Assembly (NCBI GenBank): GCA_003344405.1
Contig: NOWV01000014.1
Coordinates: forward strand, 1-64,000
Origin: Trichoplax sp. H2
Lineage: Eukaryota
Direction of reading: 5' to 3'
DNA: 64,000 nucleotides
A program made the translations under genes and the position numbers. The notes beneath the pieces were generated by a model. The model was given only the letters and a program-made list of their open reading frames with translations, did no database searches and was not told the DNA's origin. Every line of letters starts with the position of its first letter. Position 1 is the stretch's first letter. Positions 16,693 to 64,000 of this stretch are shown here, one piece after another.

Positions 16693-18625
16693 TCATGAAG
16701 GCCATGGAAGAATAATGACCAATTTGTATAGTGAGAAAAACTTTATCTGAACATATGGGCCGAAAAAATGTAAATTTTATGATTCATCATTTTAATAAAA
16801 TTATTGTGATGAAAATACCCCTAACTATCGTATAGAATAGACTGAATAAAGAATACAGTATACAATACCGTCAAAATAGAGTATGTAAATAAATGAATTG
16901 GCCATTATAATGGATACTATAGGAGATTTTCGATGGGCTGAAGGATTGGAATGCGCAGGTACTCATTCGATCAGAGAAAGATACTGCCTTAAGCCTAGGG
17001 CACAGAGTAATGCTCATCACCATGAGACAATATGGTGGTAAACTATTGACTGAGATATAAACTATTTACGAGTGTTTGGTAGTACTGCTACATTAGTCAT
17101 ATATAAGCGTGAGATTGCACGATTTCTTAATTTTTTTTCAAGATATGTCAATATATGTCTAATGCATCAGTAGGACAGCTTAACCGAAGTGTATAAAATA
17201 AATAATTTATGCAAAATAGTTAGGGCTAATGTACATTAGAGACCCTCTATGAAGCGGATGTTAGAATCCCGGTTATCCCTCTTTTCCTATTCTGAATAAA
17301 TATACTCTTCTTTCTTTATAATTTGCGTGCTACACTATCGATGGACTCACAACTACCACCTCCATCCATGAAGGTACCTACTGAAGTGAATGCCGATATG
17401 TCAGAGCTAATAACCTCGACGGCGACAACATCACAGTACACTGTACACTGTATAGAATTTTTTTTTCAGATCAGTGTATATTTTTATGGTTTATTTTATT
17501 ATAAAACCCGTAAAAGTTGATATGGGTTTGATCAAGTTTTGATCATATTATTTGTTTTTTTTTTAAACTGGATTGAATATCTACACCCTGTATATATATT
17601 ATTTGTAGTTAAACTATTGATTATATTGATTATTTGTATATGGCATATACATTTTTTAATTATAATTAACACTTACCAGGGCAATCATCACTGCGCATGC
17701 ACAAACACTATGACAGCATATCTACTACAGTACTTGACTATGAAGTATCGATGTTTTCTTGGAGTAACCTTTTAATGTCAAGACTTTAGCAGTTCTAACA
17801 TCGAAGAGGACTTTCACATGGAGAGTTACACATATAATAGCAAATCTTTGGTTGTAATCCTTTTCAGTTTTGATTCTATAGCAGCCCAAATCTTCCCATG
17901 CCGTCCTGAGGTTTGCATGAATTGCTACACATTACACAATTGTGCTGTTGTGGTAACTGCGCATGATCGTTAACCTCAGCTCGACATGTAACAACATGTA
18001 CCCATGCTGAGACTACAGTGTACAGTACATTGCAGCGTGCGCAAGGGACTGTAAGAGTACAATAGTACTGTATCAATGTGCGATAGTCGACCATCAGAAT
18101 ATTTCAGCTATACACGACTGAATATAGGATAAATTGCGCTGTCTAGTACATCATACAGCAATTCGCTACAGTACATTGGATACTGGATGACGCCAATGCT
18201 GTATCCAAGGCATCCTAGCAATGAACTGCACGTCATTTGATTAGCCCCGGCAAAATCAATATTAAAATAGCGCTGTAAAACTTTAAATCGTAGCAAAGTA
18301 GACGACTAACGCTTTGGAACTGCATGCAATAGCATTGATTGTATCTGAATTGCACTGGCCAGTGGAAATCGTGGAAAGGAACGCTACTTCTAGAGTCATT
18401 ATTGGCTAAGAGCTGATTTTAACGTCGCATACTTTTAGAGATCCAGGTCTTGCAGTTCATTCATTTACTGACAACGGATGGTGAAAATAAATTAAGTTGA
18501 ACTGGCGATCGTTGTGAAAGAAGAATATAATTGGATGAATGCTTCATTTTAGGTGAATTAAATATTGTCCAATCCTATTGATATAAAGATAGACGACTCT
18601 AGGCTCGGTAGAATTGTTGAGCGAA
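16693..18625. promoter_or_regulatory. Probable bidirectional promoter/5'UTR region between SH3BP5 (-) and SHPRH (+)
   Basis: Head-to-head start codons 1.9 kb apart. Locally GC-richer, with TGCGCATG motifs (~17692, ~17958), ATTGG/CCAAT (~18193, ~18401) and TACAGTA/TACTGTA motifs. Transcription starts are not visible. Confidence 0.45.
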
Positions 18626-21600
18626 ATGAAACGAAAAAATTCAACCGTACGTAAAATTTTACCTGAGCAACAACAGCAATTATCTTGGAACATGGCCAGC
18701 CTTGCCAATGGTGTTGCTGATGATGATGACATGGATGATCTACCGCATAATTCGGATAGTTCAGCCACAACGGCAAAGAAACAAAAGGTGGTATCGGATG
18801 ATAATTCTAACGATGAGATCGATCAATTCTCTATCCATTTGCATGTAAATATTTCTAAGGTAGAGACTGTTGCACGTACTTTCGAAATTGGCCAATTTAA
18901 AGCTCAGATTACATTAGATGGTACTTTCGACCTCCAAGCTATTGACGCTATGATCTTATCATTTGGCCAATGCAATGATAATGGCTTGGCAACTATCCAA
19001 CTCAATGATAATTATGAAAGAAAGCTACTATGTTCTATCCATCTACCTACACATGTACTCAATGCTATGGATATCCTAGTCAATAAATACCGAAATAAAA
19101 ATGGCAATGCTGCTTCGTTATACTTGCACGCCATGGAAACAGACAAACAATTTGTTAACCTTACTCTATCCCTATTTCTGGAAAGTCCAGCGTTCGCTAA
19201 ACTCCCAGGGCCAAGTGCATCCATTGCCAATACTGGTGCTAGTCATCTTATACAAAATGTACCCGTTATCATACGACATTTCTTGGGCGGTCAGTTGAAT
19301 AGTGAAGACTTTGAAGGTAACAGTAACTCATACTGAACATATTGATTACGTACAAATAACTATAACTGTGGATATACTGGTTGATTTCCTTTTAACATTA
19401 CGTCCTGCTGATTACTGTATACGTATAAAATAAATGGAATATCTATCCAACAACATTTTATGGCAACTAGTAGAGTATTATGCACATGATGCTTCGCGTG
19501 AATGTGTTGTAATGATAGTGAATTTTAAATTTCTAGAGAGGGATAAATGCCGTAATAAGCAATGCTTTAAGGATTGATACGACTAGATTAGCTTGGGTAA
19601 AAATGAAATTGACTTATTTTATTATCAATAGTTTCCCGAATACCAGGTACAGCTGCAGATGCAGATGAAATCTACCGTAAAATTAAATCATCTCCATATG
19701 CTATGAAATCGGATATCGATGATCGAACCCATTTGCAGCATCAAAATTTACTGCCAACTTTGAGACCGTATCAGGCTAGAGCTGTTCAGTGGATGTTAAA
19801 TAGAGAAAGATCATCAACATCGGTACAAGATCGATCGACAATCCACTCATTGTGGAGGGAGTTAAAATCAATTGATGGAAAACAATTTTATTTTAATCCG
19901 TATTCTTCTCGGTAAAGCTCTAATTACTGTTGATAGGACTGCTTATACCCTTTTGCAGTTTTACATATTATCAAGTTATCTATTATAACCAGACTTAATA
20001 ATATTATTAACCTTTCATCAATTTCTTAAGAATAACTATATCCAGATTTAATATTGCCCCTTTGCCACCTGGTGGGATTTTAGCTGATGAAATGGGCCTA
20101 GGAAAAACGGTAGAAGTTTTGGCTTGCGTACTATTGAATGAAAGACCAACTAATATACTAGAGAACTCGACATCGACAGATGTTAGTGGCAATAATTTAG
20201 CTGCAAAGAGTTGCAATGATGTATGTGAGCGATCAGATGTAGCCTATCAGTATGACTGCAGTGACTCGAAAGATGCGGATAAAGTTGATGAAGGAAAAAA
20301 TACTTCTACGCTACGTAAACGAATACACAGTCAACTGAAAGATAGTATAACTAGACCAAGTAATGGTAATTCATGCAAACTTACTTGTATTTGTGGTGGC
20401 TTAAATGAAGATGAAGACAGTGAGCAGCCGAAAACCGCGCAATGTCAAATTTGTTCGATATGGCAACATCCAAAGTGTGTTAGACCCGACTTTGATTATT
20501 GTTCAGAATATATTTGCCCGCATTGTATTGTTAGAAAGGTACAATAATGCCACATTTCTGCCATAATTAAATATAATTTAATCTAGCGGCAATCCATTTA
20601 TCAGGCGCTAGCTCAATTCTTGCTCAAGTGAAAATTTTATTTAAAAATTTGTTAATAATATTATTAGCCTACTATCGCATCCGGAGCTACGTTGATAATA
20701 TCTCCATCATCGATTGCTTACCAATGGAAAGAAGAAATAATGAGACATATCGATAAAGCTGGCTTTAAAGCAATGGTAAATATGGGTATATATCCTCATT
20801 CAATCGTATAGTTTACTGATATTGAAGATAATTAGTTACAAGTACTAAACCGAAATGAATTATTTTCTTCTTACAGATATATAAAGGTGTTGCCAAGGAA
20901 GGATTTATTAATCCTTCTGTTTTAGCAAACTATGATATTATCATAACTACATATGAAACTCTCCAGCAAGATATCTATCATATTGCCGACAACCACGGTT
21001 ATTATTGCATACATTACACAAAGCTTAATTATCTCCTGTAGGTAATGAAATTATGTCATATACTAACCCTTATATTTATTAATAGGCAATGTTCAAAAAC
21101 AACTGCGTTTCACTAGGCGATATTTAGCCTTGCCTAGCCCTCTACCATGCATAAATTGGTGGCGGATATGTTTGGACGAAGCCCAAATGGTAGAAAATGT
21201 AACCGCAAGGGTGAGTTCTTATGCATTCGAATAGGATTTTTCAAGCGTCTTGCATTTTTTTGAGTGTTTCTTTAAAAAATTGAAATTTTATTGTTTAATA
21301 GGCTGCAGAAATGGTTCTTAAATTGCAGTGTATCCATCGCTGGTGTGTGACGGGCACACCGGTTCAGAGGGGAATTGAAGGTAACCATATGCAATCTTAT
21401 TTGATACACAGTATAATTAAATGAAATTATTATTAGGATTTTAAAGTATTATACGAAATCCGTATCAAGATGAATGCCAAACTGATGTGTTAATATTTAA
21501 AAAATTATTCATTTTTATAGATTTGTATGGCCTTGCACTTTTTCTTGGGTTGGATCCAATTCACGAAAGGGTATGGTGGCGAAAGGTTATATATGAAAAT

Positions 21601-26182: not shown

Positions 26183-28317
26183 TTTGTTTAAACTATTGGA
26201 AAGCTCTCTAGTTTCATATATCGAATTTTCTCTAAGCGACAAAGATAAAGTCTCATATTTGGTAGGACCCGTTTTAGTTCACAATACTTTAAAAAGTAAT
26301 TTGTATTAAGGAATTGTTGGGACAGTTGGAATAACTTTTGTATATAATAAGACGGTAAAAAGTTTTAATATCGTAGTTTACCAATGCTTTATTACCTGAA
26401 AATTTCAGAATTTTTTGGTCTGTCTACCAATTTTATTTTCGTTTGATTCTAATTACAATAAGGTACAAATTAAAAAAAATATGAAATACTTCGTTTGTTG
26501 TAATATGAAATGTTCCTTATTATATGGCAGACGGTGTCTTCTATTCTAAGCTACCAAGGACGCGAGTGGGTAATCTTTAGTATACATTGGGTTAGGACTT
26601 GAACGTTTTATGATTTTTCATTCATCGTTATAATTATAAACGAAATTACCACACGGTTATCGGGAGGGGTAGCATAACATGCTACAACTATCTGCATTAC
26701 AGTGGTAATACTCACTGTTTTTAATAGACTTGATTACTGAGATACGCTGAAACTTGTACCCATAAAATCAATCAATAATCGTGAATGATAATAACTGTTT
26801 GATGTTCATCTACAGTAGATTCTACACGTTACCCGCCCTATAACTGTAAACCCAAGTTACTGGGCCAATAGCGCAATTAGCATATCGTATAGTATCAAAT
26901 AGTCACTACAACTTGAAAATACAGCATCATTTTTCCTCACCTAATAGTGAGAACGCTTGTCACTTTAATAAGAATCAATAGTAACGATAAAACCGTAATA
27001 AAATTATATGCTTAGGACTGTCTCGTAGATATGGAATGGTATATCGGATTTGTAGTGTACATTTGTCGTAATATTTTATACAATGACTTACTTAACAACA
27101 GTGTGAATTTTTACGCTTAAATCGCATTGCTGTAACTTACAAAGGTATGCTGAGAAGTTACATTTAATGAGCGCCAATTTAGATAAATTGTATTCTAACT
27201 TCTAAATAAATATTAATCCTCTTTAATTAGCTACTAGGAATTGAGCTGCGGATAAAGATACTGTAATGTTATCGCGCTAAATAGTCAGGGACTTGAGGAT
27301 AAAAATGACTTTCCAAAATGAAAAAAATTGATTTAAAGGAATCAATTTTTATTCATTTTTGAAGACGATTTCTATCGAAAAGTCCCTGCAATAGTGTAGA
27401 TTGAACAAACACCTTTATCATATTGTTACATTTACTCATATATTTTCATCACAGGAAATGCTCATCGTTTTGAAAGTGTTTCATTCACTTCCTTTTGATA
27501 TCAAGCCTTGCCTGTATTTGTTTAGTAATAGATACTACTTCAATTAAGCGTATGTATGTTTGGACTATTTCCTGAATATGAATCTTTACGTTACTAGAAT
27601 AGATTACAACTTATCAGAGTATGTTTAATTCAAAAGGAAACGTAGTTACATATACCAGTAGCAATATTATTCTAGTAACCAAATTGATTCCTCAGTATGT
27701 ATAGTTTAGATTTCAACTTGGATAATTCCATCTCAACCCTTTTACTGTTATAACAAAAATCTTAAATAATTATAAATAATAATTAAATTATTATTATTAT
27801 TACATCTTTGTCGACTCTTGGTTGATATTGTTTACCCGGTCCAATTAGTAACCTGTAAACATCCTTAAGTAAAACAGGTAGTATGGATATAAAAAGATTG
27901 TATAAATACTGCAACTTTTTCACTGGTGATGAGTAAGTAGGTCAATTACTAGTTCAATAAAGGCAATAATACATCAATGATAAAATTATTATACAGTACG
28001 AGTTAATGTACATGAGCAGTTACAGACAATATGGATCTGATTTAATCTGCATTCTTTCAAAAATTTTTATCGTCGTAATATGGCTATATACAAAGTTACA
28101 GATGCAGTATGTATATTCTATCGCGCTGAATATATCATACAGATAATATGTGGAAGGATTCAATGCTAAAGAGACGATATACCGTACGTCCTAAGGCTTC
28201 ACACATCGACTTTCATAATCAGCTGTTAGAAAATTGTACGAACGTCTGCCATTTGGCTACCATCATTATCTTTTTTAAATAAGGTAGGGATAAAAATTGT
28301 GCCAGTAAAATGCAACA

Positions 28318-29697
28318 TTATGAAACATTGACTCTTCCACTGGTGCCAGCTAACGTCACCATGATTACGACCGTGACAGCAAGAAGGAAAATTACAGCCT
28401 TGCCGCTGAAGTGTTCCATGTTGTAGAAGAAAACAATCCACATAAAAGCGATAAATAGCACAAGTAGAGGAATAAACAATTTACTTAGATCCAATTCTTG
28501 CGATTCCTCTTGTGGTTGGCTTTGTTCCTGGCTTGCTGATTGTTGTTGCCCTTGGCGAAAACCTCGAACAGCATGGATATTGGAATGATTAGTAATATGA
28601 TAAGCAGCAAGTGTCCTAATACTGTCGCGTAATTCATATCCACGGTAAATTAAGCGTACAGACGCACCAGCAGCAAGATCTTGCGGGAAAGCTATCCTAT
28701 ATGGAAGAAAGGGTAATTGTTGATTATGATATTCTAGGATAGTGTATGTAATTTTCTAGTTAGAAGGATTTCTGAGCCTTAAAAAGTACTGTAATCAATG
28801 CAGTTTGACACATTCCAACTACTCAGTACAAGGGTCCATGCAGCTGATTTCTCATATTTTATTGAGCACAGCCTAGCTAAGTATAGTTACGTACTAGTAC
28901 ATGCAATTTGAAGTTATCAATTCCATCCGATAATATTTTTAAGAGACAAGGCTAGGTTGAAAGATAGCTAGCTTTTTGGAGTTATCAACTGTTTTTTTTT
29001 CTTTTGATGAATTAGACTGAAAGTAATGCAAGTACTGATGGCAAAGACTATGAATGAGAAGGTTACAGAGAAATAGCCAGGTTCATTCATAGCATCCTTG
29101 TCCAACTATTCAAATTAATACTCACTCTTTCAACTCGCCAACAGTTGTCATTGGATTAGCAGACACTACTTTCCTGCTCTGGTCTAACATGACAATGGTT
29201 AAAGTCCAAGTTTGATTGGGATCATTTTGTTGTGTCTGATTATTATTAGAACGACTTCTGAGCAATGTATCAGGCTGCGTTGAATGGCTAGCAGCAGGCG
29301 TTGTTGTACTCGTATTGGGAGTTTGATGAATTTGTGATGGATGAGTTTGTGTATCACGATTGTTGAACAAGTTGGTATGATAGGTATCACCAGTAGAAGG
29401 AGTAGATGGTTGATCATGGAGATTAGATTGCATAGGATGATCTGTAGACTGAGTATTTTGCTGCCTTTGCGAATGATTCGCAGGGATACGGATTAAATCA
29501 TCCGTGGATTGATTTGGGTCCACTTCATCGCTATTCCATTGGCTATTTTGACCAGTCATTGTAGCTTGAGGAATTGGCAGTGTAATGCGATGATTATTGG
29601 ATGATTTGACAGCCCACAAAATGACCGCAGCGCAGAACAAGGCGACAGTGCCTATGGATAACAGGACTTCATCATCAATGCCTTCGATGACCGCCAT
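28318..29697 (-). CDS. TMUB: Transmembrane and ubiquitin-like domain-containing protein (TMUB1/2 family); exons 29697-29126 and 28696-28318
   Basis: N-terminus MAVIEGIDDEV plus a TM helix (TMUB1 starts MTLIEGVGDEV); low-complexity linker; UBL domain (TTVGELKEIAFPQD..VRLIYRGYELRDSIRTLAAYHITNHSNIHAV); two C-terminal hydrophobic helices; phase-2 GT-AG intron in frame. Confidence 0.92.
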
Positions 29698-29807
29698 ATT
29701 GGAGAAGTTGCTAAAGAATCTGCAGTCAGTCAATGACGTCACCGTGCAGGGTGTCGAAGCTTACCGGTGGCTCATGGATCGCTAGATGCCCTGTGGTGAG
29801 ACGATAA

Positions 29808-30335
29808 CAGTGTACTGTACAGTACTGTACAGCAGCTTTACTTCATTCTTGTACTGTAGAATACAGTATAACGTGTTCAAGATGGTGCCGAGTCAACTAC
29901 GGAATACATGTACAGTAGAACGGAAAGCGGATGCGCACTTGAGCTCCTCGCGGATTGCACCTGCGTATTTCTTTCATGCCGCAACAGTGGGCTAACTATG
30001 GAACATGATACTGTACTGTACATACACTCAGTGTACAGTACTATACTGTACAGTACTGTACTGTACTGTACAGTACACTGTACAGTAGCTTTGCTTCATG
30101 CTTGTACTGTAGAATGTACAGTCAAGATGGTGCCGACTGCCGAGTCAGCTACGGAATGGAATGGAACGCGGATGCGCACTTGAGCTCCTCGCCGACTGCA
30201 CCTGCGTATTTCTTTTCATTCAGCCAAAGTGGGCAAACTATGGAGCATGATACAATACTGTACACAGTGTACAGTACAGTACATTACAGTATTCAAGGTG
30301 GCTGTACAGTACTGTACTGTACTGTACGTACTGTA
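29808..30335. repeat. Two ~250-bp tandem copies of a GC-rich module separated by (TACTG/TACAG)n tracts, immediately upstream of TMUB
   Basis: Copies start ~29841 and ~30094 and share CTTGTACTGTAGAAT..TCAAGATGGTGCCGA..GCGGATGCGCACTTGAGCTCCTCGC..TGCACCTGCGTATTTC..AGTGGGC.AACTATGGA.CATGATAC. Confidence 0.85.
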
Positions 30336-30611
30336 TTAAGAGTATGCTCGTTGCTGCTCATTCTACGCTTGACCAAGTTGTTCATCTCCATTTTTCGTCC
30401 AGCTTTGGAAAGAGTCTATTGGCTATCATCAAGACGGTGATGTCCACTGAAATACTGTGATAGCTCTACTGTGTCCCCAAAATCGCTTAAGGAGTTGTTA
30501 TGAAAGGAAAAGAACCTGAGAAAAATGTGTCCAACCTTTCCTAGCTCGAATAGGGTACACAGTACTGTACAGTATGATACACTCTATTACGCCAAGGGGC
30601 ACAGTATACAG

Positions 30612-30969
30612 TACAGTAGGCTGTTGACGAGTTGGGCAACCATGGGTTGATACACGGACTATAATAGTACTGTACCGTACCGTGCCAATTGCTCAGGACC
30701 AGTACAGTGCCCCACTTGCTCATGCTCATAATTGATATACGGACCGTAATAGTACTGTACCGTACCGTGCCAACAGCCCAGGACCAGTACAGTGCCCCAT
30801 TTGCTCATGCTCATAAGGACATTTTTAAAAGGCATACTGTAGGCTGTTGACGAGTTGGGCTACCATAGGTTGATATACGGACCGTAATAGTACTGTACCG
30901 TACCGTGCCAATAGCTTAGGACCAGTACAGTGCCCCATTTGCTCATGCTCATTAGGACATTTTAAAAGG
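30612..30969. repeat. Three copies of an ~84-bp unit (cores ~30647, ~30732, ~30870); copies 1 and 3 share an extra ~30-bp leader
   Basis: Shared TTGATA(C/T)ACGGAC..TAATAGTACTGTACCGTACCGTGCCAA..AGGACCAGTACAGTGCCCCA(C/T)TTGCTCATGCTCAT; leader GTAGGCTGTTGACGAGTTGGGC at ~30616 and ~30839. Confidence 0.9.
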
Positions 30970-33900
30970 GAAAGGACTGGAGAAGAAAGAAAGCCGCGGA
31001 TGCCATGACAATAATGGCGAATGGAGTCAATAGGCATTTGTTTAAGCCCAGTACAAGCAGTATGGAATGGGAAAATTAAAAAAGTCCTGCAGGCATTTTG
31101 TATTGAAACTGTCATTATCGAGTATTATACCCTTGTGTATCCATCTAATCAACGTTCATAATAGGACATTGATTTTCTCTTGATTGGATTGCCTATTCAG
31201 CCAGGACAACGATCTGACGGAGTTAGCAAATCGATTCCATTCCATTTCTATCTTGGGCCATCGTAGCGACGAGGAGACCAGTGGCAGTCGTTCAAGCCAT
31301 TCTTCAAGAGTCAATTGCTATCTTCAAGGCTTTACTTGACCGACAATTCAATTTAATTTGTTATCCTATCGTATTAAGTCAACCCTTCTACTTGAAAAGT
31401 GAAAAGAAATCGATTCAGCCAGAAAATTTCAATTCATACGTTGGCGTCGTTGAATGTCCAATATTTGGATATCTCTCCTATATCTCCCCCCCGTCTTTCG
31501 TCATTAGGATTGCATTTTTCCACGCTTTGCTGACATCTTTATCCACAACTCTATTTTAGACACTTTAACCATTCCATAAACTACCTCCATTGTTGGCCTT
31601 ATAAGCGACATTCTACAGTTCCAGCATGTTATCGGTAAGAACGAAACTACCATTTCCACTTGCTCGTGCCATTGACTGTCGATGCATAAATAGGAATAGT
31701 TGATGGGAAAATTTTTTATTTTCCTGTTATTTTAATGACGGGGGCGATATCGTCAATGGACTGTAACTAAATTCGATACCAATGACTCTGTAGATGGGAG
31801 AAAATGAGAGATTGATTGATTGATGATATTGATAGTATAGTTATTATTATATTTCAATGATATTCAAAATGCGACTCTACTTGCCCTTGAGAATTCCATT
31901 CTCACTAGCAGCACTGACAGTAACATGATGGTAGTTGCAATATCTTTTTATCCTGATGAAGGTTTTGCCTTTTATTCGATATGAAAAGTATAAATACCAG
32001 AGAGTGATGGTACGACTGTCATGGATTGATTATAAATGTAAGAAAAAAGAATATTTCAACCTTTACTAAATCATTATAATTCGTACAACTTTGACTTTGC
32101 TCCTCAATAACAGTTTGAGTGCAATAAATAAGAACAATCCAGCTTGACCATGGTATGAATCAATAGACACCAACTACAGTATATTGCTAACTTTGATTTA
32201 TAATTATCACAACTTAGACGCTGTGTTATAGTCATGACCGATTGAAAACTTCAAGTTGTCCGAAAAATTATCGTCATCATCTTTCCATAGCTTTTATACT
32301 CTTTTGAAGAGAATCGCAGCTTGACTAGTCCGATTGCAATATACTGTGTGCTGTAAATACTCTACTTTTTCATCGACGAGAAATTGAATTTCCTTTTTCT
32401 CACGTTTTCACTTTTTTTTGATTTTTATTTACTATCCGTTGAGTAGCTACCATCAGTATAGGATGTAATCTCCCATCAGTAATGTACAATAAATTAAATC
32501 GTTGCTACTATTTACTTTTACTGCGCATACTAGCTATCGATCCAAAACAACATTCCTTCTGAACTCATTAATTTCTCTTTCCTCTATTTTGGGGGCACTT
32601 TTCTCTTTTTATTCACTTCTTATCACAAATACTGTACTCTAGAAGAACTATTATGGCCTTTCAGCATTAGCAATTTTCTGTAATAATGACAGGCTTGCAA
32701 GAAATGAAATTGAAGTCAATATCCTCCTAGCGAACATATTGTACTGTACAGAGTCTATCGTTGTAGGTGATGTAGCCATTACGCAAATATCCGTTTACAA
32801 TGTCGTAAATAAAATGCTGCGATATCATTCTCTGTTATATTTTCTGTAACCCTTGCAGTTGGTATATTGTCAAGTAAGAAATCAAACGGTAATGATGAAA
32901 AGATTAACACTAAGCTCCCATCAATTACGAATCATACAATCTTTTCAATAATATTGAAATTGACCACGGTATTTCGCTCACTCAAAGTAGACTCTTTCTA
33001 TGCAAAAGTTGATCAAAAAATAAAATTATCTCTAATTTCACGATTCTTTACAGCTATATTGACATAACTGCGTATTACAGTACAATATACAAGCCTGCAC
33101 AATATCAGGAGCTATCTTGAACATGGACTTTTTGTTGATTTTCGATTAATTTATAATTGAATTCGTGAGCAAATATTGTGTAAGTGCAGTCAACCACAAG
33201 TGATTACTTTATATTAGCAGACTGTAAATCAGATGGAAAAACCCATAGATTGCTGTCTATGATACATTCTTAATCCACAGTTTAACCAATATCTTTCTAT
33301 GAATGATTCAATCATGTAAATCCTTCGTTATTTTATTCGAGTTGTAAAATGGAATTCATTTGATCAAGTGTGTCCATCTAACATTTAAAATATCAATCAA
33401 CCAGGATGATCACAACAATAGCGTAAATTTTCAATACTTTAGATCATTTCTACCTACTGTAAAGCATATTATGGACTACATTTACTTCTATTTTTTTTTA
33501 GTATTTGAGCTCACTAAAGTAAGTAATAGCCAAAGTTTAGTTATTATTACAACCGCCCATAAAATAGAGAAATTTTTTCTACTCGTGTTTTCCTTTGTAT
33601 ATGTTCATATATATAATCACAATCTTAAGTTTGACGATTATCATTTTTATTTTTGGATATCTATATATACAGTACAGTACGTCAGGGTCAGTACACGTAG
33701 GCTACATATTTTCATCATTTATTACCCTTATCGCTACTTGTTTTTATTATACGAAATTATTGCTCAGTATATAGCGATAGCTGTACATTATTTAGCTTTC
33801 CTATCTGCGGAAATCTGTTGTTATCACATTGTTGATGAGCTTGTTATGCGTACGTAAATATCTTAGTACAGAAGCAAAAATAGAACTAGATACAACATAG

Positions 33901-36563: not shown

Positions 36564-38498
36564 GAGGAGTTAGAAAAGTCAATGAAAATTTTTATTGGTG
36601 GATTAAGTTTTGATACCACGGATGAGACACTTCGAAATTACTTTGCTAAATATGGAGATATTGCTGACAGTGTAGTGATATGCGAGTCTGGTTCAAGGAA
36701 ACCGAGAGGTTTTGGATTTGTTACCTATAAAGATGTAACTAGTGTTAAGAATTGCTTAGCTGGTATACCTCACCAGATTGATGGTAAAACTGTTGAAGTC
36801 AAGCATGCAGTACCAAGAGAAAGTAATGAATTAGCAGCACCTCATGAACGACGCTCTAAAAAGATTTTTATTGGTAGGTCAATAGTCTATTTCCATTATT
36901 AGTACTAGCCGTAATTATGAATTGTAACTGGTGCCCTGTTCTTGTTAAAATATGTCCGCATATAAATTCCTACTATTGACTTCCAGTCTCCTATCATCTA
37001 CATACATATTAATTACTAATAATTCATTAATATACTAGGCATTTATAACAACATTTGTCGCATTAATTAGACATTAAAGTTTTTAAGGAGTAGATTCACG
37101 AATTTTTAAAAATTCTATAAACTTCTGCAAGAATATCATATTAACCATTTTTTAACTTATCATACGCGTAGATTATTCTTAGCGGTACAATAACAGAATA
37201 TGCTATTTTCATTCTTTTTTTCTTCCAATACCCCATCAAGGTGGACTTGGAGCATCAACTACTGAAACTGAAATTCGCCAGTATTTTAATCAATTTGGTA
37301 AAATATTGAATATCGATCTGAAAAAAGATCGTGACACCAATGTTTTAAGAGGTTTTGGATTTGTAGTATTTGAAGCCGAAGACTCTGTAGATAAGGTCTT
37401 AACTGCTAGGTGAGATGATGAAAGTAATTTTTTCTCTAATTTTATCTTGAATCTGTTGGAATTGTACTGTAGCAGCAATGATTAGGCGCAGTTTTGAACA
37501 TACACATATTTTAAAAAACAAAAGTGCACGGTAATATTCAAATTCAATATCGTAAGTATATTAACATTCATACTACAGTGATATCTACAGTATACTGTAT
37601 CTAAATCAATTGTCATAGATACTTCTATGTGGGTACTGTAATTGCTTATTGGATTAATGATGATCATATGTTAAATTACTCTATTTAACATGTTAGATAC
37701 CATGATGTCGGTGGTCGCAAAGTTGAAGTTAAGAAAGCTGAGCCACGTAGTGCATTAAGTACCAGTAACAATAACGGTATAGGGCGATTTCCAAGAATGG
37801 ACACCAATGATACCTACCCATCAGATGGCTACTTCAAATGGGATGGAAGAGTACGTGAAAAGATTTCCGGCTATTTGGATCGACATGGACCTTTAATTGC
37901 TAATGCACAAAGTGATAACAACCTATCATTTGTAAACGGATATGATGATCATCGTTTCTCACCGAATCATATCGATAGTGATGAACTACTGCACAAAGGC
38001 GGAGCAATATATCGTCGTCAACCTGAAAGACCTTCTCGCGTTGATTGTGATGTTCCATACAATTCTGACTTAGTTTTCGATGCAAACTTCTCTAATTATC
38101 CCGTAAATAGTATACAGTACGACCAAGTACGAGATCTTTATGATCTAGATGCCAATAACTATAATGTCAATCCGCTACCAAGAGATTATCATCATTCTTT
38201 ACCATTGTATAGTAAACAACCCAGCGGAAGGCCTGATGGTAACCATAATAATGTTATCGCGCGTCAAGCTGGTGGCTACCAGCGGCATTTGTCAAGACTC
38301 CATTACGACTTTGATAGAATGCCAGAACACGATGGAAAAGAAGCCATGGTAGGAAAGATTTCTTCTGAACGATTACCTTATGACTTTCAGCCAAATCTAT
38401 CGCGTCGTCATAACTCTAATAGGAGGCAATCAAGGTTAGATCATCCCCAAGCAAGCGGTGCTACCTACAAAGGTATTCGTAGGGCCTACCCATACTAG
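36564..38498 (+). CDS. Dual-RRM RNA-binding protein of the hnRNP A/B-D / DAZAP1 / Musashi group; exons 36564-36873, 37241-37409, 37697-38498; first exon probably further upstream
   Basis: RRM1 KIFIGGLS..PRGFGFVTY..IDGKTVEVKHAVPRE; RRM2 KKIFIGGL..LRGFGFVVF..YHDVGGRKVEVKKAEPR; long polar tail ending RRAYPY*. An acceptor at 36562-36563 precedes the in-frame ATG at 36582. A candidate upstream phase-0 exon is 34284-34340 (ATG..AAG|GTAAGC). Confidence 0.88.
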
Positions 38499-57419: not shown

Positions 57420-60270
57420 AAATCTTGGCTCTATGCATTCATGGAAAATTGCCAATACGTGAGAATATATTCGGCCTAAGAAGGTATACTCAATACGATT
57501 GAAGGCATTCGGTAGTTTATAAATATCTATGCAAATCATCCAGCTGGTCAGATCATATAAACAACAATAGAAGTTGCTCAGTATGTACATGCACATAGGC
57601 AACATAATTTTAAGAGCAATTATATCTACAAATATGGAAAAATACCAGAAGACTTATAAACTTTGTAAAGACAGGCAATGAAAATTTGTAATAGAAATGG
57701 GCATAGAGAAATAGCGGCAAAACTGGAAGGTGAAATGACGTTGCACGCAATAGAATTGTCAAATCAAAAATATTTGTTCAAAAAATGAAAATGGATCTGT
57801 TAATTTATTCAGCATTTGTGCATGGTTAAGAACAGTAGCAAAATTTTAGTGATATATACAGTTGATTTAGCTGTATTTCTCTTTGTTGATATTGATTCTC
57901 TGCATTCACTGAAAGTTTTATTTTACTTCTACGTATACATAGCTTGACTACCGATTTAATAAATCTTGATTCATTTGAAAGTTTAATTTTATAGGTTAGA
58001 GTTACGTATCTTGATTACCCAACCAGTAATTCTTAATTTATTTAAGACGTAAATTAAAATCAGCCGATGACAATGATGCTGTTGCCAAAGAGTGAGGCAT
58101 AAAATTGCCTTTCATTATTTTCTCTCCTATTTTAATAATTAATTTACCCATTCTTATCCAGGTATTAAAATTTTTAAGAGATTGGATAAATAATACAATC
58201 CACATCGATAGACAATAACAAAGTTGAAGAATAAACTTCTAATTTCTACGGAAATAGTACAAGATTATTGAGCACATATTTCTATACAATTAAAGTCATA
58301 GCTGCGTTATTTCAATTATGTATCCTCTATGCTTCATTTAATGTAAGGGAAATTAAGAAGATATCTCTAGGTTCGTGCAGTATTCTAAATTATTACAATT
58401 ATCCATAACATCGATTATATTATAGAGTCAAATGTAATTTTAATCTTATATGATAATGGAAAAAGCTATTTCCAATGTGTACTTTAGGTTGCTATCGCTT
58501 ATTGACATGAATAGTAGCCTTGAAATTCCATCCATTTCAATTGTTCAAAGAGCATGAATAATTTAATAAGTGTATCTCCACTTGAAAAATATAAACTTAC
58601 TCATGGAAATATTATCGCATTTTAGAAGCTATCGTTGGTTTAATAGATACTAGAAGAATTAGATTTTGATATGTGTGCAATAGCCAATGTGTGCTAAGTA
58701 CTTAGGCAACTAAAATATCATCTACTAGCTTGAGATCAACGTATCAATTCGAACATTATTGGAATAGAAGTTTTAGTAGATGCTTACTAATTGCTTCAAT
58801 TAAGGTCTAATAAATTCGATTAACGTATTCATTTCGGTTCATAAACTCAGGATTAATATTATTATATCTAATTTCAAGTTCTATCTATCCTTTATGCACA
58901 TGAAATTATTTTATTACAACTATCAAAGTCTATCAAATATTCATTTCAGAGTTATAAATAGGATTGACAGCTTGCATGGTTTAAGAGATGATATCATCAA
59001 AGGGGAGGAGAATATTATAATAGCTATAACAATCTTCAAATAACTATTAAAGCATGAAATTTATATTACCTAATTATCCTCATTAACTGATATGGTTGAT
59101 ATGGGAAACAAAATGATAGAGTACAGATTAATAATATTCTTCAGCATAACATTCTACATTAAATTCTTTTTTTAAGGGATTGGGAATTTTAATGGGGAAA
59201 GGAAGTTAAAATATTATTTGATGATCGAATTCACATAAAGGTCACTTCAAATGATAATAATTGTTTTCGATATCATTTAATACCGTTACTCGGTAAATTT
59301 AGTTTAGCTTCGCTAAACTAGCACAGGAAAGTGATATTGCTTAGATAGTCTTAGTTTAATATAGGCGAAAATTTTTCAATACAATTACTCATCTATCAGA
59401 GTAAATTATTAGCTTGAATAAAGGAGGCTATTACGATTTTAATTGACAGCTAAATTACATCAAAAGATTCTACTAAAACTGTTGTTTAGGAAGGAAATTT
59501 CCTACTTTATTTTAAATGAGTTCTTCCACCTCCTATTTAATATTGTAGCTCCTGGTCGACATCAACCGTAGCTAAATATTATTTTTTAGCGTATTGAAGT
59601 AAATAGATAAAGGGAATAAATAACGATTAGTAACTTCCAAAATAATCAAAGTTTAGCAGAGCAACTTTCTTATATCCATCACTGTTTGCAATTAGTAAAT
59701 TCCAGCCATTTCATAAATTGAAATTATAGAGATAGTAAACAGCACTTGGTGTAATTTAGATAATAGTTTTGTTGAAAAGCGATAAACTGCAATAACAGCA
59801 ATTATTTGACGGTAGTCATTATACCATGAAAAGAATAGTTGATTTGCTTTTTACATCATAGTATTACCGGTTGCTGATGCTTACAGCGGCTTGATTACAC
59901 TTGAAAAGAGAATTGGATTAGAAAAACCAAGGAAAAGAATACTCAATACAGACAATAGCTATTGTCTGTATGTAGAATATCACGACTTTAATTCACTTTC
60001 TATATACCCATACAATAGCCAGCCGATGAAAGCAAGAATTTTTGGAAAGATCCATTACTATGTATGAGCTAATTTCTCAGAAGCATTGAAGATGTGTTGA
60101 TCAGCTTGATAAAATTTGGAATGATTCATTGGGAAAACAGAGTTAGAATCAATTTTAGAAAAATAGGTGAATGTTCTAATGTTTTCCAAGCTAAATAAAC
60201 AGCATTTAACTGAAGCAGAAATCCTATAATGCTCTTTTCTCCATCCTAAAAAAGATTATTATCCTTGCTA
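57420..60270 (+). pseudogene. Possible heavily decayed coding relic with LRR-like and protein-kinase-like fragments
   Basis: Stop-interrupted peptides in colinear order: LEELDFDMCAI..INSNIIG..LLQLRSNKF (58650-58820), MGKGS* (59192), KLHQKILLKL..YFILNEF (59452-59523), QSLAEQLSYIH (59647-59679), HLTEAEIL*CSFL (~60204-60242). Recognised by eye only. Confidence 0.3.
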
Positions 60271-62432
60271 ATGCTGTCACCACTGAATAATGTCTACTCT
60301 ATTTAATAATAAGGATCGAACAGATCTAGTGCCATCAAAATTCCTATCCATAACCATCATTTCGTTTTGGATAGAAGTGAAAAGTCTAATGGATAGATTA
60401 CCCTTACATCTCCTAAATCTCTTCTAAAAATCTTGCTCAATAGCAATACTGCATAAGCATGCTATCGAGTGATAAACTTTTAAATTAACTCTTGGGGAAG
60501 AAATATTATCCACGTTAAAGCTACCACATCTGAATAACTTCTACCGGTGCCATATCAATATCGAAGAATGATCAATCTACTAAATCCAAAGGTAGTCAAA
60601 TTTCAATGTATGGCCATTATTTGTTTTGCATAGAAAATGAAAATACACTAATAGATAGGCTACCTTTTCTGTCTCAGTATACATTCTCGCTTAATAGTAA
60701 TAATGTATATATACGTTATATACTATGGGTAATCAGCCTTTTAAATCGATTTATTAATAATGCTACCTTTGGATGGCAGCTATATTGTTAAAATCGAATT
60801 CGCTGAATGAATTTGAAAATCATGCAGTCATAGCGGATACAAAAAGTCGATTTGAGACTATTTTTATTTTAATTAGCCCATCAATGTAGACTTGCTGCGT
60901 TTATTATATACTGATCCATTAATTTTCCTTTACTTTCGATACTGATCAAAGCTACATACATGTAGCTCATGTGGATGCGAACTATGTCATTCTTGTAGAT
61001 ACGCCTAATTAATAGTTTGTTAATACCACCGATAAACGAGAGAATGGCTATCAAATTGCCCTATTAACATTAGAATATGAGCTAGAAATTGCTAGTTATA
61101 AATGAAGAATGTATTATGGTTATTAAAAATAACTAAAACAAAAATTTAATAGGAATTTTAGCTGCTTATGATTCTCGCATTTTCTATATTACGTATATAT
61201 AAGTAATCTAAGGCAGTATCAATTTGCAATAGCCTAATATAGTCAAATTGCGACGATAAAAATGTTTGATGATTGTAATCTTAACATTAGACGCAATGGC
61301 ATCGGCTCAAAAATGATGAAATTTAAGTCACCCGACAAATGCTGTTATTGAATATAACGATCATGATGGTAATGTAGGAATTGTACACATCACCATCAAT
61401 TTAATTCAGCTATAATTAACTCTACTTCCTATCGAGCTATCATCTTAAATAATGGTAGAGATGCATTTTAATCAGCTATTCAAGCTGTCATAAATGAATG
61501 AATGATTTGATCAATACCATTTTAGCTACAACCCTGAGATCATTTGACAAATGATGTAACCGACGTTGAAAGTTTTTATATACAGTAGACAGTCAAGTTT
61601 ACCTCCAAAGATCGATTCTAGTATCATTAATGGGATCTATCTTAAAATAGACATAACGTTCTTTCAATGAATTTATTGCCTTAGTTATAACGCATAAAGG
61701 TTGTTACCCAAGTTTTATTGTTATCAAGTAGGAGTATAATATAATAATAATAAAGTTGATATTATCTTCTAGATGACTAAATTTTTTCTAGAATCCATTT
61801 TAACATGGACAGCATACATAAATGGTAGAAAGAATATTACAAGATAGGAAGATCTCTTAGCTCCAAATGTTGAATCAAGATTTCTATTTGGAAAATACGA
61901 TGTAACAAATCATAATGAACGCTTAAAATAATCAAAAGTCGCATGTTTATCTTGTTAATGATTGATAGAATTTATATTTAATGATTTTTAGTGGAATAAC
62001 GTAAGTAACGTCAGTTAATCTTGGTAGATTTGACTGAAAATTATCATAAGTAGATTTACACTGATGAAATCCTTTAATAATTCTACAATTTGCTGAAAAA
62101 TTTAGAAAGGAATCATAGTTATGTATAGGACAATTTTCCATCTACAATCATGTAAGCGTATTAATGTGCATAGGTCTTATAATGAGAAAATTACCATAGT
62201 AAAAGGGTAATGAATTGATAGGTAGCACAAGTCAAAATTAAATTACGAATACGAATGAACATACAGATTTTTTTACATGATAGCAGTGCCATAACTATTA
62301 TCAATCTAATAGTAAGGAGATAGTTGATTGTACTAATTATTATCTTTATTTCTACGACGATAATACTAGATATTGAGTTGAAGAGTGTCAATATGAAAGA
62401 TATAATTAAAATTGATATGTTTCTATCCTTAT

Positions 62433-62711
62433 TTAACTTGGAGTGGTCGGATCAACCAGCTGTGAGTTAAGATCAATTTTTAAATCAGGTAATTCTTCTA
62501 GCCTGTATAAGCCAAATTCGAAAATTAAATCGATTATAGTTTGATCATCGATGCTATCGGCTAGTAATTGAAAGTCTTCAAACCAACAACCATCTCGTTC
62601 GTAAAATGATTGATGAAGATGGTGATGGAGCAATAGATGATTATTATTCCTGTTCATTGAGTTCTTTCCATGACAGCTTTCATCTTCATTGGTTACAGTA
62701 AATTGAACCAT
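62433..62711 (-). CDS. CITED: CITED-like (CBP/p300-interacting transactivator) small protein, 92 aa, single coding exon
   Basis: Residues 52-82 DSIDDQTIIDLIFEFGLYRLEELPDLKIDLN align without gaps to CITED2 CR2 [31 protein letters not shown] (13/31 identical; reference sequence recalled from memory). Good start context gaaaATGG; His-rich N-terminal stretch. Confidence 0.8.
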   Translation of the reverse strand: MVQFTVTNEDESCHGKNSMNRNNNHLLLHHHLHQSFYERDGCWFEDFQLLADSIDDQTIIDLIFEFGLYRLEELPDLKIDLNSQLVDPTTPS

Positions 62712-64000
62712 TTTCTCTCAAAGTTTGAAATATTGATATAATATTGAGGATAAAAAGTTTTCAATTTTTTGTGGTACACTTATTTGCTTTGTCAAGTAGG
62801 AAACTTGAAAAGGTTTTATAACAACTTATTAATCAACTTTTAACCTATTTTTCGATCTTTTCCTTTCTCTTCTTGGCTTCACTAGCTTGCGATTTTGATA
62901 TGTCAATATCGATGATGCTCAATAGGATCAATTCTTATCACCGAGTAGAAATAGAATGGATGGGAAATATTACCAAATATAATCTTGTAATAGTATCCTT
63001 AATATTTTTATGCCTATATATAAGGAAATTATCGAGAAACCAACTTATTAATAATATAATCTAGTAATCGATGGTAACACTGAGTAAATTTAAATTATTA
63101 TTTCAAGTAGAAGGAGTCAGCTGGACTGGAATATTAATATTTAGTCATTGTAGTTTAAGTCAAATCTAGTTCATTCCATTACTTATTGAGCTGGAGTGCA
63201 AGTGAAAATAATTTACACGGTCACGAGTTATTTATATTGTTTCCATGTGATAGAAATAAAGCAAGATTAAATAGAATAGACAAGCAAGACAGGATGTCTA
63301 TATTAATCAATATTATTTCAATAATTTGAACCAATGAGAATGAGTAATAACCTAAAGTCATTTTATTTAATGTCTTTATTGGGGAGTATTATTTTATTAC
63401 GCTTCTATGTGAAAAGAATAGCTTTAGGTGTCGATTTCGATCCTAGTCGATACGCAAATGGAAATAAATTGAGCACGAGGTTGGTAATAATATTAGGAAT
63501 CAATAAAGATTTCAATTAAATAGTCAGACAAGAATAAAATTTGATTCTGTTGTCTTGTCAAGCATTTTATAATCAAAAAAATACATAAGGATATCGGAAA
63601 GGAAGGAATGGAAAGGAAAATAGTACCGTAGTTAAAAGAGTGAAAAATCATCTTTTAGCTCTTTCTTCCTCCTTTCTTGGTATAAATTTTGTCAAAATAT
63701 ATTGTTATATTTAGCTCGTAATCCTTGGTAACAATTATACCTACGTTAGGCATGCATTGATTAACATTATCTTACCCATGGCCGTAGCCTATTTTTACTT
63801 CTTTTTGCTTAATTACTTGATCATCGTCTATAACAACATGGCGCTCTAACTATGTAATTTATTCTATTAAATCCTATTATTGACTAGCTTTATTCAAATA
63901 GATTACAGTTGAAATTCTTCATCATCAACAATAGAATAGTATGACTGCTCTACACCCCCTGCTTGGAATAAAAGGATAATATCAATCATAGAAGGTAACC

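What the first reader, a model, noticed from the sequence alone, without database searches (positions are those of the whole stretch)
62433..62711. Minimal CITED-family CBP/p300 binder in an apparently early-branching animal genome
Seen: a 92-codon ORF with a strong start context whose C-terminal third reproduces the CITED CR2 pattern D-x-I-D-(D/E)-x5-L-x2-E-x-G-L-x-R-x2-E-L-P-(D/E)-L-x4-N, with LPDL at 62492-62481. Established: vertebrate CITED1-4 bind the TAZ1/CH1 domain of CBP/p300 through this region, and CITED2 uses LPEL in displacing HIF-1alpha. The family is usually described as vertebrate and is absent from fly and worm. Inference: this could be a near-minimal ancestral CITED, small enough to be missed by annotation, implying that TAZ1-competition control predates bilaterians. 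If the host is a placozoan, whose HIF-alpha is reported to lack the C-terminal transactivation domain, the ancestral competitor or partner may not be HIF (AP-2, Smad or LIM-homeobox factors are candidates). The vertebrate WLGQNEFDF tail is replaced by KIDLNSQLV. Whether this gene is already reported needs checking.
Basis: partly seen in the sequence, partly recalled or inferred. Interest (0 to 1): 0.88.

Follow-up and report, generated by a model that had tools for sequence, protein, structure and literature searches.

The report
Unannotated CITED-like small gene in Trichoplax
A placozoan (Trichoplax) genome carries a small, conserved gene, present in RNA libraries and missing from public protein sets, whose C-terminal half looks like the part of vertebrate CITED proteins that grips the coactivator CBP/p300; the match is specific but weak, and binding is untested.

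Summary
The ORF is real and lies as described: 92 codons at 62433-62711 (-), with LPDL at 62492-62481. It behaves like a coding gene. RNA-library contigs cover it, and one ends exactly at an AG acceptor at 63013 and continues with non-genomic letters. The 302-nt leader has no ATG, against 5.3 expected. All 5 of 5 variants in the CDS are synonymous. Two intact 84-aa orthologues exist. A neighbouring gene's 99%-identical cluster names Trichoplax, so the host is a placozoan. The exact protein is absent from the 15-billion-protein collection.

The CITED similarity is specific but below threshold. Pfam CITED is the only hit, at 18.1 bits against a cut-off of 27, E=0.003. The PDB hits are CITED2 chains only, E=0.005, ungapped, 13 of 32 identical. 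The match covers the αA segment, LPxL and a conserved Asn. CR1, CR3 and the aromatic φC residues are missing.

A control shows hits of this strength can be either true or false. TAZ1 binding could not be tested. I rate a CITED-type CBP/p300 ligand at about 0.55. The papers I could search say placozoans lack CITED2.

The parts
62433..62711 (-). Coding sequence of the 92-aa acidic protein (stop codon included); the whole CDS lies in one exon
   Evidence: ORF. pI 4.48, 17 D+E against 5 K+R. 5 of 5 variants seen in sequencing runs are synonymous third-position changes. Two 84-aa orthologues are 57% and 64% identical.
62688..62711 (-). N-terminal octapeptide MVQFTVTN, identical in all three orthologues; function unknown
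   Evidence: 8 of 8 invariant.
62586..62687 (-). Variable Asn/His-rich linker (residues 9-42), with an 8-residue length difference between orthologues; predicted disordered
   Evidence: 5 of 34 columns invariant. (6/26 and 9/26 identical, 8 gapped). (pLDDT below 50 for residues 6-38).
62451..62585 (-). Conserved C-terminal block (residues 43-87): the WFEDFQ aromatic-acidic motif, the αA-like segment, LPDL and the DLNxQL tail
   Evidence: 32 of 45 columns invariant. (33/45 and 35/45 identical, no gaps). (helices 43-53, 56-65 and 71-85; ten-residue block mean pLDDT 72-84 over residues 41-70).
62472..62561 (-). Stretch matched by Pfam CITED (residues 51-80, profile positions 160-189 of 210)
   Evidence: 18.1 bits, E=0.003, cut-off 27. 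(residues 51-82 against CITED2 chain 1p4q_A positions 13-44; ungapped; 13 of 32 identical by my count).
62514..62546 (-). αA-like segment (residues 56-66), aligned with CITED2 αA residues 225-235
   Evidence: Alignment. CITED2 numbering: PMC13286877. AF2 helix 56-65.
62481..62492 (-). LPDL motif (residues 74-77); it reads LPEL in both orthologues, as in CITED2 residues 243-246
   Evidence: Motif role: PMC8784115.
62451..62480 (-). Tail after LPDL (residues 78-87, KIDLNSQLVD). It is hydrophobic and acidic like the CITED2 φC motif and keeps the Asn, but has no aromatic residue
   Evidence: φC definition: PMC8784115.
62712..63013 (-). 5' untranslated part of the coding exon (302 nt), without a single ATG
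   Evidence: 0 ATG against 5.3 expected; 70 of 20000 shuffles and 11 of 2548 window segments of the same length have none. RNA contigs end at 62990, 63003 and 63013.
63014..63015 (-). AG of a 3' splice site (…ttccttatatatAG|G). The upstream exon is not within 58000-64000
   Evidence: table 7: the contig of run X5 fits up to 63013, then carries 29 letters that lie on nothing in 58000-64000. Sequence context.
61714..62432 (-). 3' untranslated region, end approximate. AATAAA at 61719-61714; further AATAAA/ATTAAA matches at 62350, 62078 and 61982
   Evidence: table 8 (RNA contigs reach down to 61714 in X7 and 61803 in X5).. The 64-aa ORF inside it carries 2 of 2 non-synonymous variants.

Best explanation
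This is an unannotated single-coding-exon gene of a Trichoplax-lineage placozoan. It has at least one upstream non-coding exon. It encodes a 92-residue acidic protein that is largely disordered and has no DNA-binding domain. Its conserved C-terminal half is a CITED-type CR2 activation domain: a short amphipathic helix segment (residues 56-66), an LP(D/E)L motif seven residues later, and a hydrophobic-acidic tail with a conserved Asn. I infer that this block wraps around the TAZ1 (CH1) zinc-finger domain of the placozoan CBP/p300, as the CITED2 αA-LPEL-φC region does. The protein would then either bring CBP/p300 to partner transcription factors or displace other TAZ1 ligands. What is shown: the gene is real, it is conserved under purifying selection, it is present in RNA libraries with a spliced 5' end, it is in a placozoan, and its only detectable resemblance is to CITED CR2. 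What is inferred: common descent with chordate CITED, TAZ1 binding, and any competitor role.
For: Coding gene. (a) 5 of 5 variants in the CDS are synonymous third-position changes (table 3). The chance of this is 2.6e-4 under uniform mutation and 1.8e-3 allowing for transitions. The 64-aa ORF in the 3' UTR carries 2 of 2 non-synonymous variants. (b) The 302-nt leader has 0 ATG against 5.3 expected; 70 of 20000 shuffles have none. An in-frame TGA lies three codons before the ATG. (c) Two intact 84-aa orthologues exist. Identity is 8/8 in residues 1-8, 33/45 and 35/45 in residues 43-87, and only 6/26 and 9/26 in residues 9-42.

RNA. Contigs of two runs on record as RNA (X4, X7) and of X5 cover the ORF. 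They stop at 63003, 62990 and 63013, where the DNA-like run X14 goes on. The X5 contig continues with 29 non-genomic letters exactly after an AG. X5 also holds a GT..AG joint elsewhere, at 63477>63900.

CITED likeness. Pfam CITED is the only family at E<=10 for all 3 of 3 orthologues: E=0.003, 0.0083 and 0.014. With phmmer against PDB, 4 of 4 hits at E<=10 are CITED2 or CITED2-HIF fusions; the best has E=0.005 and bias 0.1. A three-sequence profile gives E=0.0025, and the only other hit is at E=1. No HIF, p53, STAT or other TAZ1-ligand chain appears. The alignment is ungapped over residues 51-82 against CITED2 220-251, with 13 of 32 identical by my count. This is near the 45% that human CITED1 and CITED4 CTADs share with CITED2 (PMC13286877). 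It covers αA (225-235), LPEL (243-246) and N251. 11 of the 13 shared residues are invariant in the three placozoan-type sequences. Both orthologues read LPEL. The block sits at the C-terminus of an ED-rich protein, as CR2 does in CITEDs (PMC2780419). AF2 predicts a helix at 56-65 and disorder in residues 1-38.

Host and partner. Cluster members of the neighbouring KLHL gene are named Trichoplax sp. H2 and T. adhaerens. A T. adhaerens CBP/p300 sequence is aligned in a figure legend of 10.1101/2020.07.21.214338.
Against: The Pfam score is below the curated cut-off in every orthologue (18.1, 16.7 and 15.9 bits against 27).

Control. Among 63 other ATG-ORFs of 50-160 aa in the window, scanned at E<=0.02, two weak hits have no evident real domain behind them. 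One is OAD_gamma at 0.0086, on a transmembrane stretch. The other is Glyco_transf_90 at 0.0034, whose ORF I did not locate. A third, DUF6242 at 0.0015, lies on a Kelch exon. A PHD hit at E=0.003, also below its cut-off, is in the ORF at 20092-20544 (+), which overlaps the SNF2-matching ORF and which I take to be part of the SHPRH-like gene. So scores of this size can be either true or false.

No other relative was found. Only 1 protein at E<=0.001 came from 1.84 billion representatives. Only 1 of 21 candidates matched in the 5.8-billion search with the profile. The metagenome scan gave none. Nothing therefore bridges placozoans and chordates, and common descent would need many losses or undetected divergence.

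The match covers only profile positions 160-189 of 210, so CR1 and CR3 are absent. The window's protein has no aromatic residue in the φC-equivalent tail.

The two protein-atlas searches gave bacterial ankyrin or hypothetical clusters at 0.83-0.85, below the tool's own 0.9 line, and no CITED.

A helix plus LPxL is short enough to arise by convergence. Translation is not shown, and contigs cannot give strand or level.
Confidence: 0.55

Rival explanations
1. It is a real, lineage-restricted small acidic protein whose likeness to CITED CR2 is chance or convergence. On this view it is a generic acidic-hydrophobic interaction or activation motif that binds something other than TAZ1, or binds TAZ1 without common descent.
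For: All family scores are below threshold. Weak hits of the same size occur on control ORFs. No relatives were found outside three close sequences in 1.84 billion representatives. CR1 and CR3 are absent, and φC has no aromatic residue. The most strictly conserved stretch, WFEDFQ at residues 43-48, lies outside the CITED match. The published view is that CITED2 is limited to vertebrates and lancelet (passages; table passage).
Against: The resemblance is to one family only, in two libraries. It is ungapped across three ordered CITED motifs with the vertebrate spacing. It falls on the conserved block at the C-terminus. Sequence bias is low, 0.1 bits.
Confidence: 0.33
2. The C-terminal block is a degenerate ankyrin-like or other helix-turn-helix module, not a CBP/p300 ligand.
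For: The protein-atlas feature searches list bacterial ankyrin-repeat clusters as nearest, at scores 0.83-0.85. AF2 draws helices at 56-65 and 71-85.
Against: The atlas scores are below the tool's 0.9 line, and at most 101 of 256 features are shared. No ankyrin Pfam family appears even at E<=10. One repeat and a half would not fold alone. AF2 confidence is modest (mean pLDDT 58.5, pTM 0.26).
Confidence: 0.04
3. The transcript is non-coding, and the 92-codon ORF is a chance frame.
For: About one chance ORF of this length per 64 kb is expected at this composition (my estimate; no call computed it). Translation is not shown. The gene is absent from public protein sets.
Against: 5 of 5 CDS variants are synonymous. 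There is no upstream ATG in 302 nt. Two diverged orthologues have intact frames, and their conservation is block-wise at the protein level. Rfam gives 0 hits in the window.
Confidence: 0.04

Closest known systems
Vertebrate CITED2 C-terminal activation domain (CR2/CTAD, residues about 216-269; PDB 1R8U and 1P4Q in complex with CBP/p300 TAZ1)
   Same: It is the C-terminal ED-rich region of a protein with no DNA-binding domain. The order and spacing are the same: acidic D-x-I-D-[DE] cap, αA segment, G-L-x-R, LP[DE]L, then Asn five residues later. The alignment is ungapped with 13 of 32 identical. The free protein is predicted mostly disordered, as reported for CITED CTADs (PMC13286877).
   Different: It is 92 aa, against roughly 180-270 aa for vertebrate CITEDs (lengths recalled, from no call). 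There is no CR1 or CR3. The φC tail lacks the aromatic residues (KIDLNSQLVD in place of the Trp/Phe-rich stretch). It has an extra invariant WFEDFQ motif before αA and a conserved MVQFTVTN N-terminus. The Pfam score is below threshold. TAZ1 binding is untested.
Lancelet CITED2, reported as the only non-vertebrate CITED2 in 10.1101/2025.06.06.658374 (passages read)
   Same: It is a non-vertebrate protein with a CITED-type activation domain that differs from the invariant vertebrate sequence.
   Different: I could not see the lancelet sequence (figure and supplement not held), so no direct comparison was made. Lancelet has a HIF CTAD and FIH according to that paper, and placozoans are said to lack both.
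HIF-1α C-terminal activation domain (LPQL-αB-αC), the TAZ1 ligand that CITED2 displaces
   Same: It shares an LPxL motif that, in vertebrates, occupies the same TAZ1 site (PMC8784115).
   Different: No HIF chain or HIF CTAD family was matched at E<=10, apart from engineered CITED2-HIF fusions matched through their CITED2 part. In the window's protein the helix lies before LPxL, as in CITED, not after it, as in HIF.

Membership tests
CITED (Pfam PF04487) | Score at or above the curated Pfam gathering threshold (27 bits) | tested here: not met
   18.1 bits (window), 16.7 (P0001) and 15.9 (P0002). In each case CITED is the only family listed at E<=10.
CITED | C-terminal ED-rich CR2 domain, the one region present in all known CITEDs (PMC2780419, passages): αA segment plus LP[EQ]L at the vertebrate spacing | tested here: met
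   Ungapped alignment of residues 51-82 to CITED2 220-251 with 13 of 32 identical, E=0.005 against 177,635 PDB sequences. The profile gives E=0.0025. LPDL in the window, LPEL in both orthologues. The last 50 residues hold 12 D+E against 2 K+R. The statistical support is weak, so this is a met pattern and not proof of descent.
CITED | φC motif: conserved aromatic/hydrophobic and acidic residues right after LPEL (PMC8784115) | tested here: inconclusive
   The tail KIDLNSQLVD keeps the Asn and is hydrophobic and acidic. It has no aromatic residue in the window's protein, and Pfam positions 190-210 are not matched. The orthologues end in SFPF.
CITED | CR1 and CR3 conserved regions (found in CITED3; described as typical of the family in a figure legend, PMC2780419) | tested here: not met
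   The Pfam match covers only profile positions 160-189 of 210. Residues 9-42 are variable and low-complexity. CR2 alone is called characteristic of the family, so this does not by itself exclude membership.
CITED | Direct binding of CR2 to the CH1/TAZ1 domain of CBP/p300 | not testable with these tools
The complex predictor was therefore not run.
CITED | Non-DNA-binding transcriptional co-regulator: no DNA-binding domain | tested here: met
   No Pfam domain other than the CITED match at E<=10. Acidic, pI 4.48. Residues 1-38 predicted disordered. The co-regulator role itself is not tested.
CITED | Known taxonomic range (vertebrates and lancelet) | tested here: not met
   The host is a Trichoplax-lineage placozoan. 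Passages in 10.1101/2025.06.06.658374 say placozoans lack CITED2. PMC1868935 dates CITED2 to Chordata.

The most novel reading that the evidence does not exclude
A CITED-type ligand of the CBP/p300 TAZ1 domain already existed in the common ancestor of placozoans and bilaterians, as a minimal protein that is little more than CR2. It would predate the HIF C-terminal activation domain and FIH, which placozoans are reported to lack. On this reading the vertebrate HIF-CITED2 hypoxic switch was built by a late-arriving HIF CTAD competing for a site that an older CITED-like ligand already used. The original job of CITED would then be adaptor or competitor for other TAZ1-dependent factors.
Probability: 0.35. 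Interest if true: 0.82.

Novelty: new variant of a known kind. Interest (0 to 1): 0.64.

Why it matters
CITED2 against HIF-1α on TAZ1 is a textbook case of switch-like competition between disordered proteins. A 2025 preprint, 10.1101/2025.06.06.658374 (passages read), reasons from the premise that CITED2 is confined to vertebrates and lancelet and that placozoans have neither a HIF CTAD, nor FIH, nor CITED2.

A placozoan CR2-only protein would change the inferred order in which the parts of that switch arose. It would also give a natural minimal CITED for evolutionary biophysics: does αA plus LPxL bind without the aromatic φC residues? And it would point to a CBP/p300 regulator in an animal with very few cell types.

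Apart from that, it is a clean example of a conserved small gene, present in RNA libraries, that is missing from both public Trichoplax protein sets.

Tried and rejected
Word-indexed homologue searches found nothing beyond one cluster: none, and 1 of 21 candidates with the profile. The third search of that tool went on a neighbour gene to find the taxon.

A metagenome-contig scan matched 136 pattern stretches, none confirmed.

The protein atlas, queried with the whole protein and with residues 41-92, gave only bacterial ankyrin or hypothetical clusters at 0.83-0.85. That is below the tool's lead line and was not used.

The genome search on the window's own genome returned that no genome is held. 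Earlier-findings look-ups returned nothing relevant.

Rfam gave 0 hits in the window. tblastn of the three proteins against the window found no second copy; the other hits had E>=3.5.

There are 0 HRE-like RCGTG motifs in 61714-64000 against 0.83 per kb window-wide. This is uninformative, because the promoter and first exon lie outside the stretch examined.

In one search the runs X4, X7 and X5 had no contig on 58000-61617. Depths were not used to rank expression.

Codon-level dN/dS against the 84-aa orthologues was not possible, because their DNA could not be fetched.

One of the control's weak Pfam hits (Glyco_transf_90, E=0.0034) was not traced to its ORF: I rescanned 10 of the 63 control ORFs individually.

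Paper searches for invertebrate CITED found no report of a placozoan, cnidarian or other non-chordate CITED. Searches were badly aimed and returned irrelevant lists. Supplements and figures, including the CITED2 and TAZ1 alignments of 10.1101/2025.06.06.658374, could not be seen.

Full report
**1.

The minus strand carries an ATG-to-TAA frame of 92 codons at 62433..62711. The start context is gaaaATGg, and an in-frame TGA lies three codons upstream, so the frame cannot extend upstream within this exon. LPDL is encoded at 62492-62481. The window is AT-rich (GC 0.28-0.41 in 4-kb bins) and holds only 15 ATG-ORFs of 92 aa or more, real exons included.

**2. It is a gene, and most likely a coding one**

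Sequencing runs that hold the stretch were listed, and four were laid on 58000-64000.

- Two runs on record as RNA give contigs over the ORF: X4 at 62174-63003 and X7 at 61714-62990.
- X5 is guessed to be RNA and holds a GT..AG joint at 63477>63900. Its contig runs 61803-63013, then continues with 29 letters that lie on nothing in 58000-64000.
- The minus-strand sequence at that point is ...ttccttatatatAG|G. This is a 3' splice site. The plus-strand reading would need a GT donor, and none is there. So the transcript runs on the minus strand and has an upstream exon or leader outside the stretch examined.
- The DNA-like run X14 runs straight through this point.
- An AATAAA at 61719-61714 sits at the other end of the X7 contig.

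Contigs cannot give level or strand directly, and these runs were chosen because they hold the stretch. I therefore call transcription supported, not proven.

Three further lines speak for translation.

- The 302-nt leader (63013-62712) contains no ATG. The expectation is 5.3. Only 70 of 20000 shuffles and 11 of 2548 same-length segments of the window have none.
- All 5 of 5 differences that the runs show inside the CDS are synonymous third-position changes: 62445, 62457 and 62499 in X14; 62601 in X4, X7 and X5; 62700 in X7 and X5. The probability is 2.6e-4 under uniform mutation and 1.8e-3 allowing for transitions.
- The 64-aa ORF in the 3' UTR carries 2 of 2 non-synonymous changes.

**3. Relatives**

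An exhaustive phmmer pass over 1.84 billion representative proteins found 1 protein at E<=0.001: P0001, 84 aa, E=2.7e-21. Its cluster-mate is P0002. Both come from unnamed ENA and Logan assemblies.

In the three-way alignment, 46 of 92 columns are invariant:

| Residues | Invariant columns |
|---|---|
| 1-8 | 8 of 8 |
| 9-42 | 5 of 34 (with an 8-residue length difference) |
| 43-87 | 32 of 45 |
| 88-92 | 1 of 5 |

So the frame is intact in diverged relatives, and selection falls on the N-terminal octapeptide and the C-terminal block. A profile search of 5.8 billion proteins and a metagenome scan added nothing. The window has no second copy.

**4. Host**

The BTB-BACK ORF at 7929-9002 (-) has a 99%-identical cluster. 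Its members are named "Kelch-like protein 3 [Trichoplax sp. H2]" and "TRIADDRAFT_5330, partial [Trichoplax adhaerens]". The window is therefore from a Trichoplax-lineage placozoan.

The same collection does not hold the exact 92-aa protein, and one search returned no longer protein that contains it. The gene therefore seems to be absent from both public Trichoplax protein sets.

**5. The CITED likeness: specific but weak**

- Pfam CITED (PF04487) is the only family listed at E<=10 for each of the three proteins: 18.1, 16.7 and 15.9 bits, E=0.003, 0.0083 and 0.014. All are under the curated 27 bits.
- Against 177,635 distinct PDB sequences, 4 of 4 hits at E<=10 are CITED2 or engineered CITED2-HIF fusions. 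The best is 1p4q_A at E=0.005 with bias 0.1.
- The three-sequence profile gives E=0.0025. One unrelated chain appears at E=1.
- The alignment of residues 51-82 to CITED2 is ungapped.
- Numbering comes from PMC13286877 (Results part 1 read: αA 225-235, LPEL 243-246). On that numbering, residues 56-66 stand on αA, 74-77 on LPEL and N82 on N251.
- I count 13 of 32 identical. [quoted passage not shown]
- 11 of the 13 shared residues are invariant in the three placozoan-type sequences. Both orthologues read LPEL.
- AF2 with the three-row alignment gives mean pLDDT 58.5 and pTM 0.26. It predicts disorder for residues 1-38 and helices at 43-53, 56-65 and 71-85.
- PMC8784115 (passages) defines three TAZ1-binding motifs in CITED2: αA, LPEL and φC. 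PMC2780419 (passages) calls CR2 the characteristic domain present in all CITEDs and shows that it mediates CH1 binding.

**6. What speaks against**

The score is sub-threshold, and my control shows what that means. I scanned 63 other ATG-ORFs of 50-160 aa from the window at E<=0.02 and rescanned 10 of them individually.

- Clear exon families appeared: Kelch, RRM, SHPRH and SH3BP5.
- A PHD hit at E=0.003 and 18.0 bits is below its cut-off. It lies in the ORF at 20092-20544 (+), which overlaps the SNF2-matching ORF. I take it as a true hit of an SHPRH-like gene.
- A DUF6242 hit at 0.0015 lies on a Kelch exon.
- An OAD_gamma hit at 0.0086 lies on a transmembrane stretch and is probably false.
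- A Glyco_transf_90 hit at 0.0034 was not located.

Hits of this size are thus roughly a coin-flip on their own.

Further points against:

- Only profile positions 160-189 of 210 are matched, so there is no CR1 or CR3.
- The φC-equivalent tail (KIDLNSQLVD) keeps the Asn and the hydrophobic-acidic character but has no aromatic residue.
- No sequence bridges placozoans and chordates.
- The atlas searches did not point to CITED.

What raises the odds above a coin-flip is that several things agree:

- one family only, in two libraries;
- three ordered motifs at the vertebrate spacing;
- the match falls on the conserved block;
- a C-terminal position in a small ED-rich protein (pI 4.48; 17 D+E against 5 K+R) with no other domain.

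Vertebrate CITED genes also keep their coding sequence in one exon behind a 5' UTR intron. That is recalled and rests on no call.

**7. Mechanism proposed**

The C-terminal block would fold onto TAZ1 of the placozoan CBP/p300. A T. adhaerens CBP/p300 is aligned in a figure legend of 10.1101/2020.07.21.214338. TAZ1 is said to be conserved even in species without CITED2 in 10.1101/2025.06.06.658374.

The αA-like segment would dock first, and LPDL with the tail would then lock in, as described for CITED2. Whether it recruits CBP/p300 to partners or competes with other ligands is open. If placozoan HIFα lacks a CTAD (passage, citing Loenarz 2011, which I did not read), the competitor cannot be the HIF CTAD.

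**8. Novelty**

The searches found no report of a placozoan or other non-chordate CITED. Searches were uninformative.

- 10.1101/2025.06.06.658374 states that placozoans lack CITED2 and that only vertebrates and lancelet have it (passages).
- PMC1868935 lists CITED2 as of chordate origin (one table passage).

I could not check database annotations of other invertebrates, or any supplements.

**Verdict.** This is a real, unannotated, conserved small gene in Trichoplax. It is a candidate CR2-only CITED-like CBP/p300 ligand (confidence about 0.55) and is not yet a demonstrated family member.

Noticed in passing
window 63013-63015 (-) and beyond 64000: The X5 contig carries 29 letters past the AG acceptor at 63013 that lie on nothing in 58000-64000, and the contig ends there. 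This is either a short first exon at least 1 kb upstream, outside the window, or a trans-spliced leader. I did not search for these letters elsewhere.
   Followed up: no
window 63340-63477 and 63900-63994 (+): There is a spliced transcript on the other strand in run X5: a GT..AG intron of 422 nt, with a further loose end after 63994. It either diverges from the CITED-like exon or lies inside that gene's first intron. The ORF starting at 63334 gave no Pfam family at E<=0.02 in the control set.
   Followed up: partly
window 41387-61949: No ATG-ORF longer than 69 aa on either strand over about 20 kb next to the gene, and no stop-to-stop frame of 120 aa or more beyond 38498. This is an unusually empty flank for a window that is gene-dense elsewhere. 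It could hold regulatory DNA or small exons. Not examined.
   Followed up: no
window 62568-62585 (-), residues 43-48; and 62688-62711 (-), residues 1-8: Two invariant motifs lie outside the CITED match: WFEDFQ, an aromatic-acidic stretch directly before the αA-like segment, and the N-terminal MVQFTVTN. Neither has a counterpart in the CITED alignment that I could see. They may be a second binding site and a stability or localisation signal.
   Followed up: no
window 414-2256 (-) and 7121-9002 (-): A tandem pair of BTB-BACK-Kelch (KLHL-type) genes, each split into at least two exons. The second has a 99%-identical cluster named Kelch-like protein 3 in Trichoplax sp. H2 and listed as a partial model in T. 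adhaerens.
   Followed up: partly
window 14186-14548 (-), 18593-20547 (+), 36582-38498 (+): Other animal-type genes in the window: an SH3BP5 exon; SHPRH-like exons (an SNF2 match at 20011-20544 and a sub-threshold PHD finger at E=0.003 in the ORF at 20092-20544; the control set also matched SHPRH helical domains in an ORF I did not locate); and an RRM protein with a long low-complexity tail.
   Followed up: partly
window 28001-32000: A GC rise to 0.41 against about 0.30-0.33 elsewhere. It coincides with ORFs for a Gln/Ser/Thr-rich protein with a weak ubiquitin-like match (E=0.0007) and a transmembrane stretch.
   Followed up: no
window 63268: A 23-base deletion relative to the window in the contig of RNA run X4, within the putative intron upstream of the coding exon (table 4). 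It is probably a strain difference.
   Followed up: no
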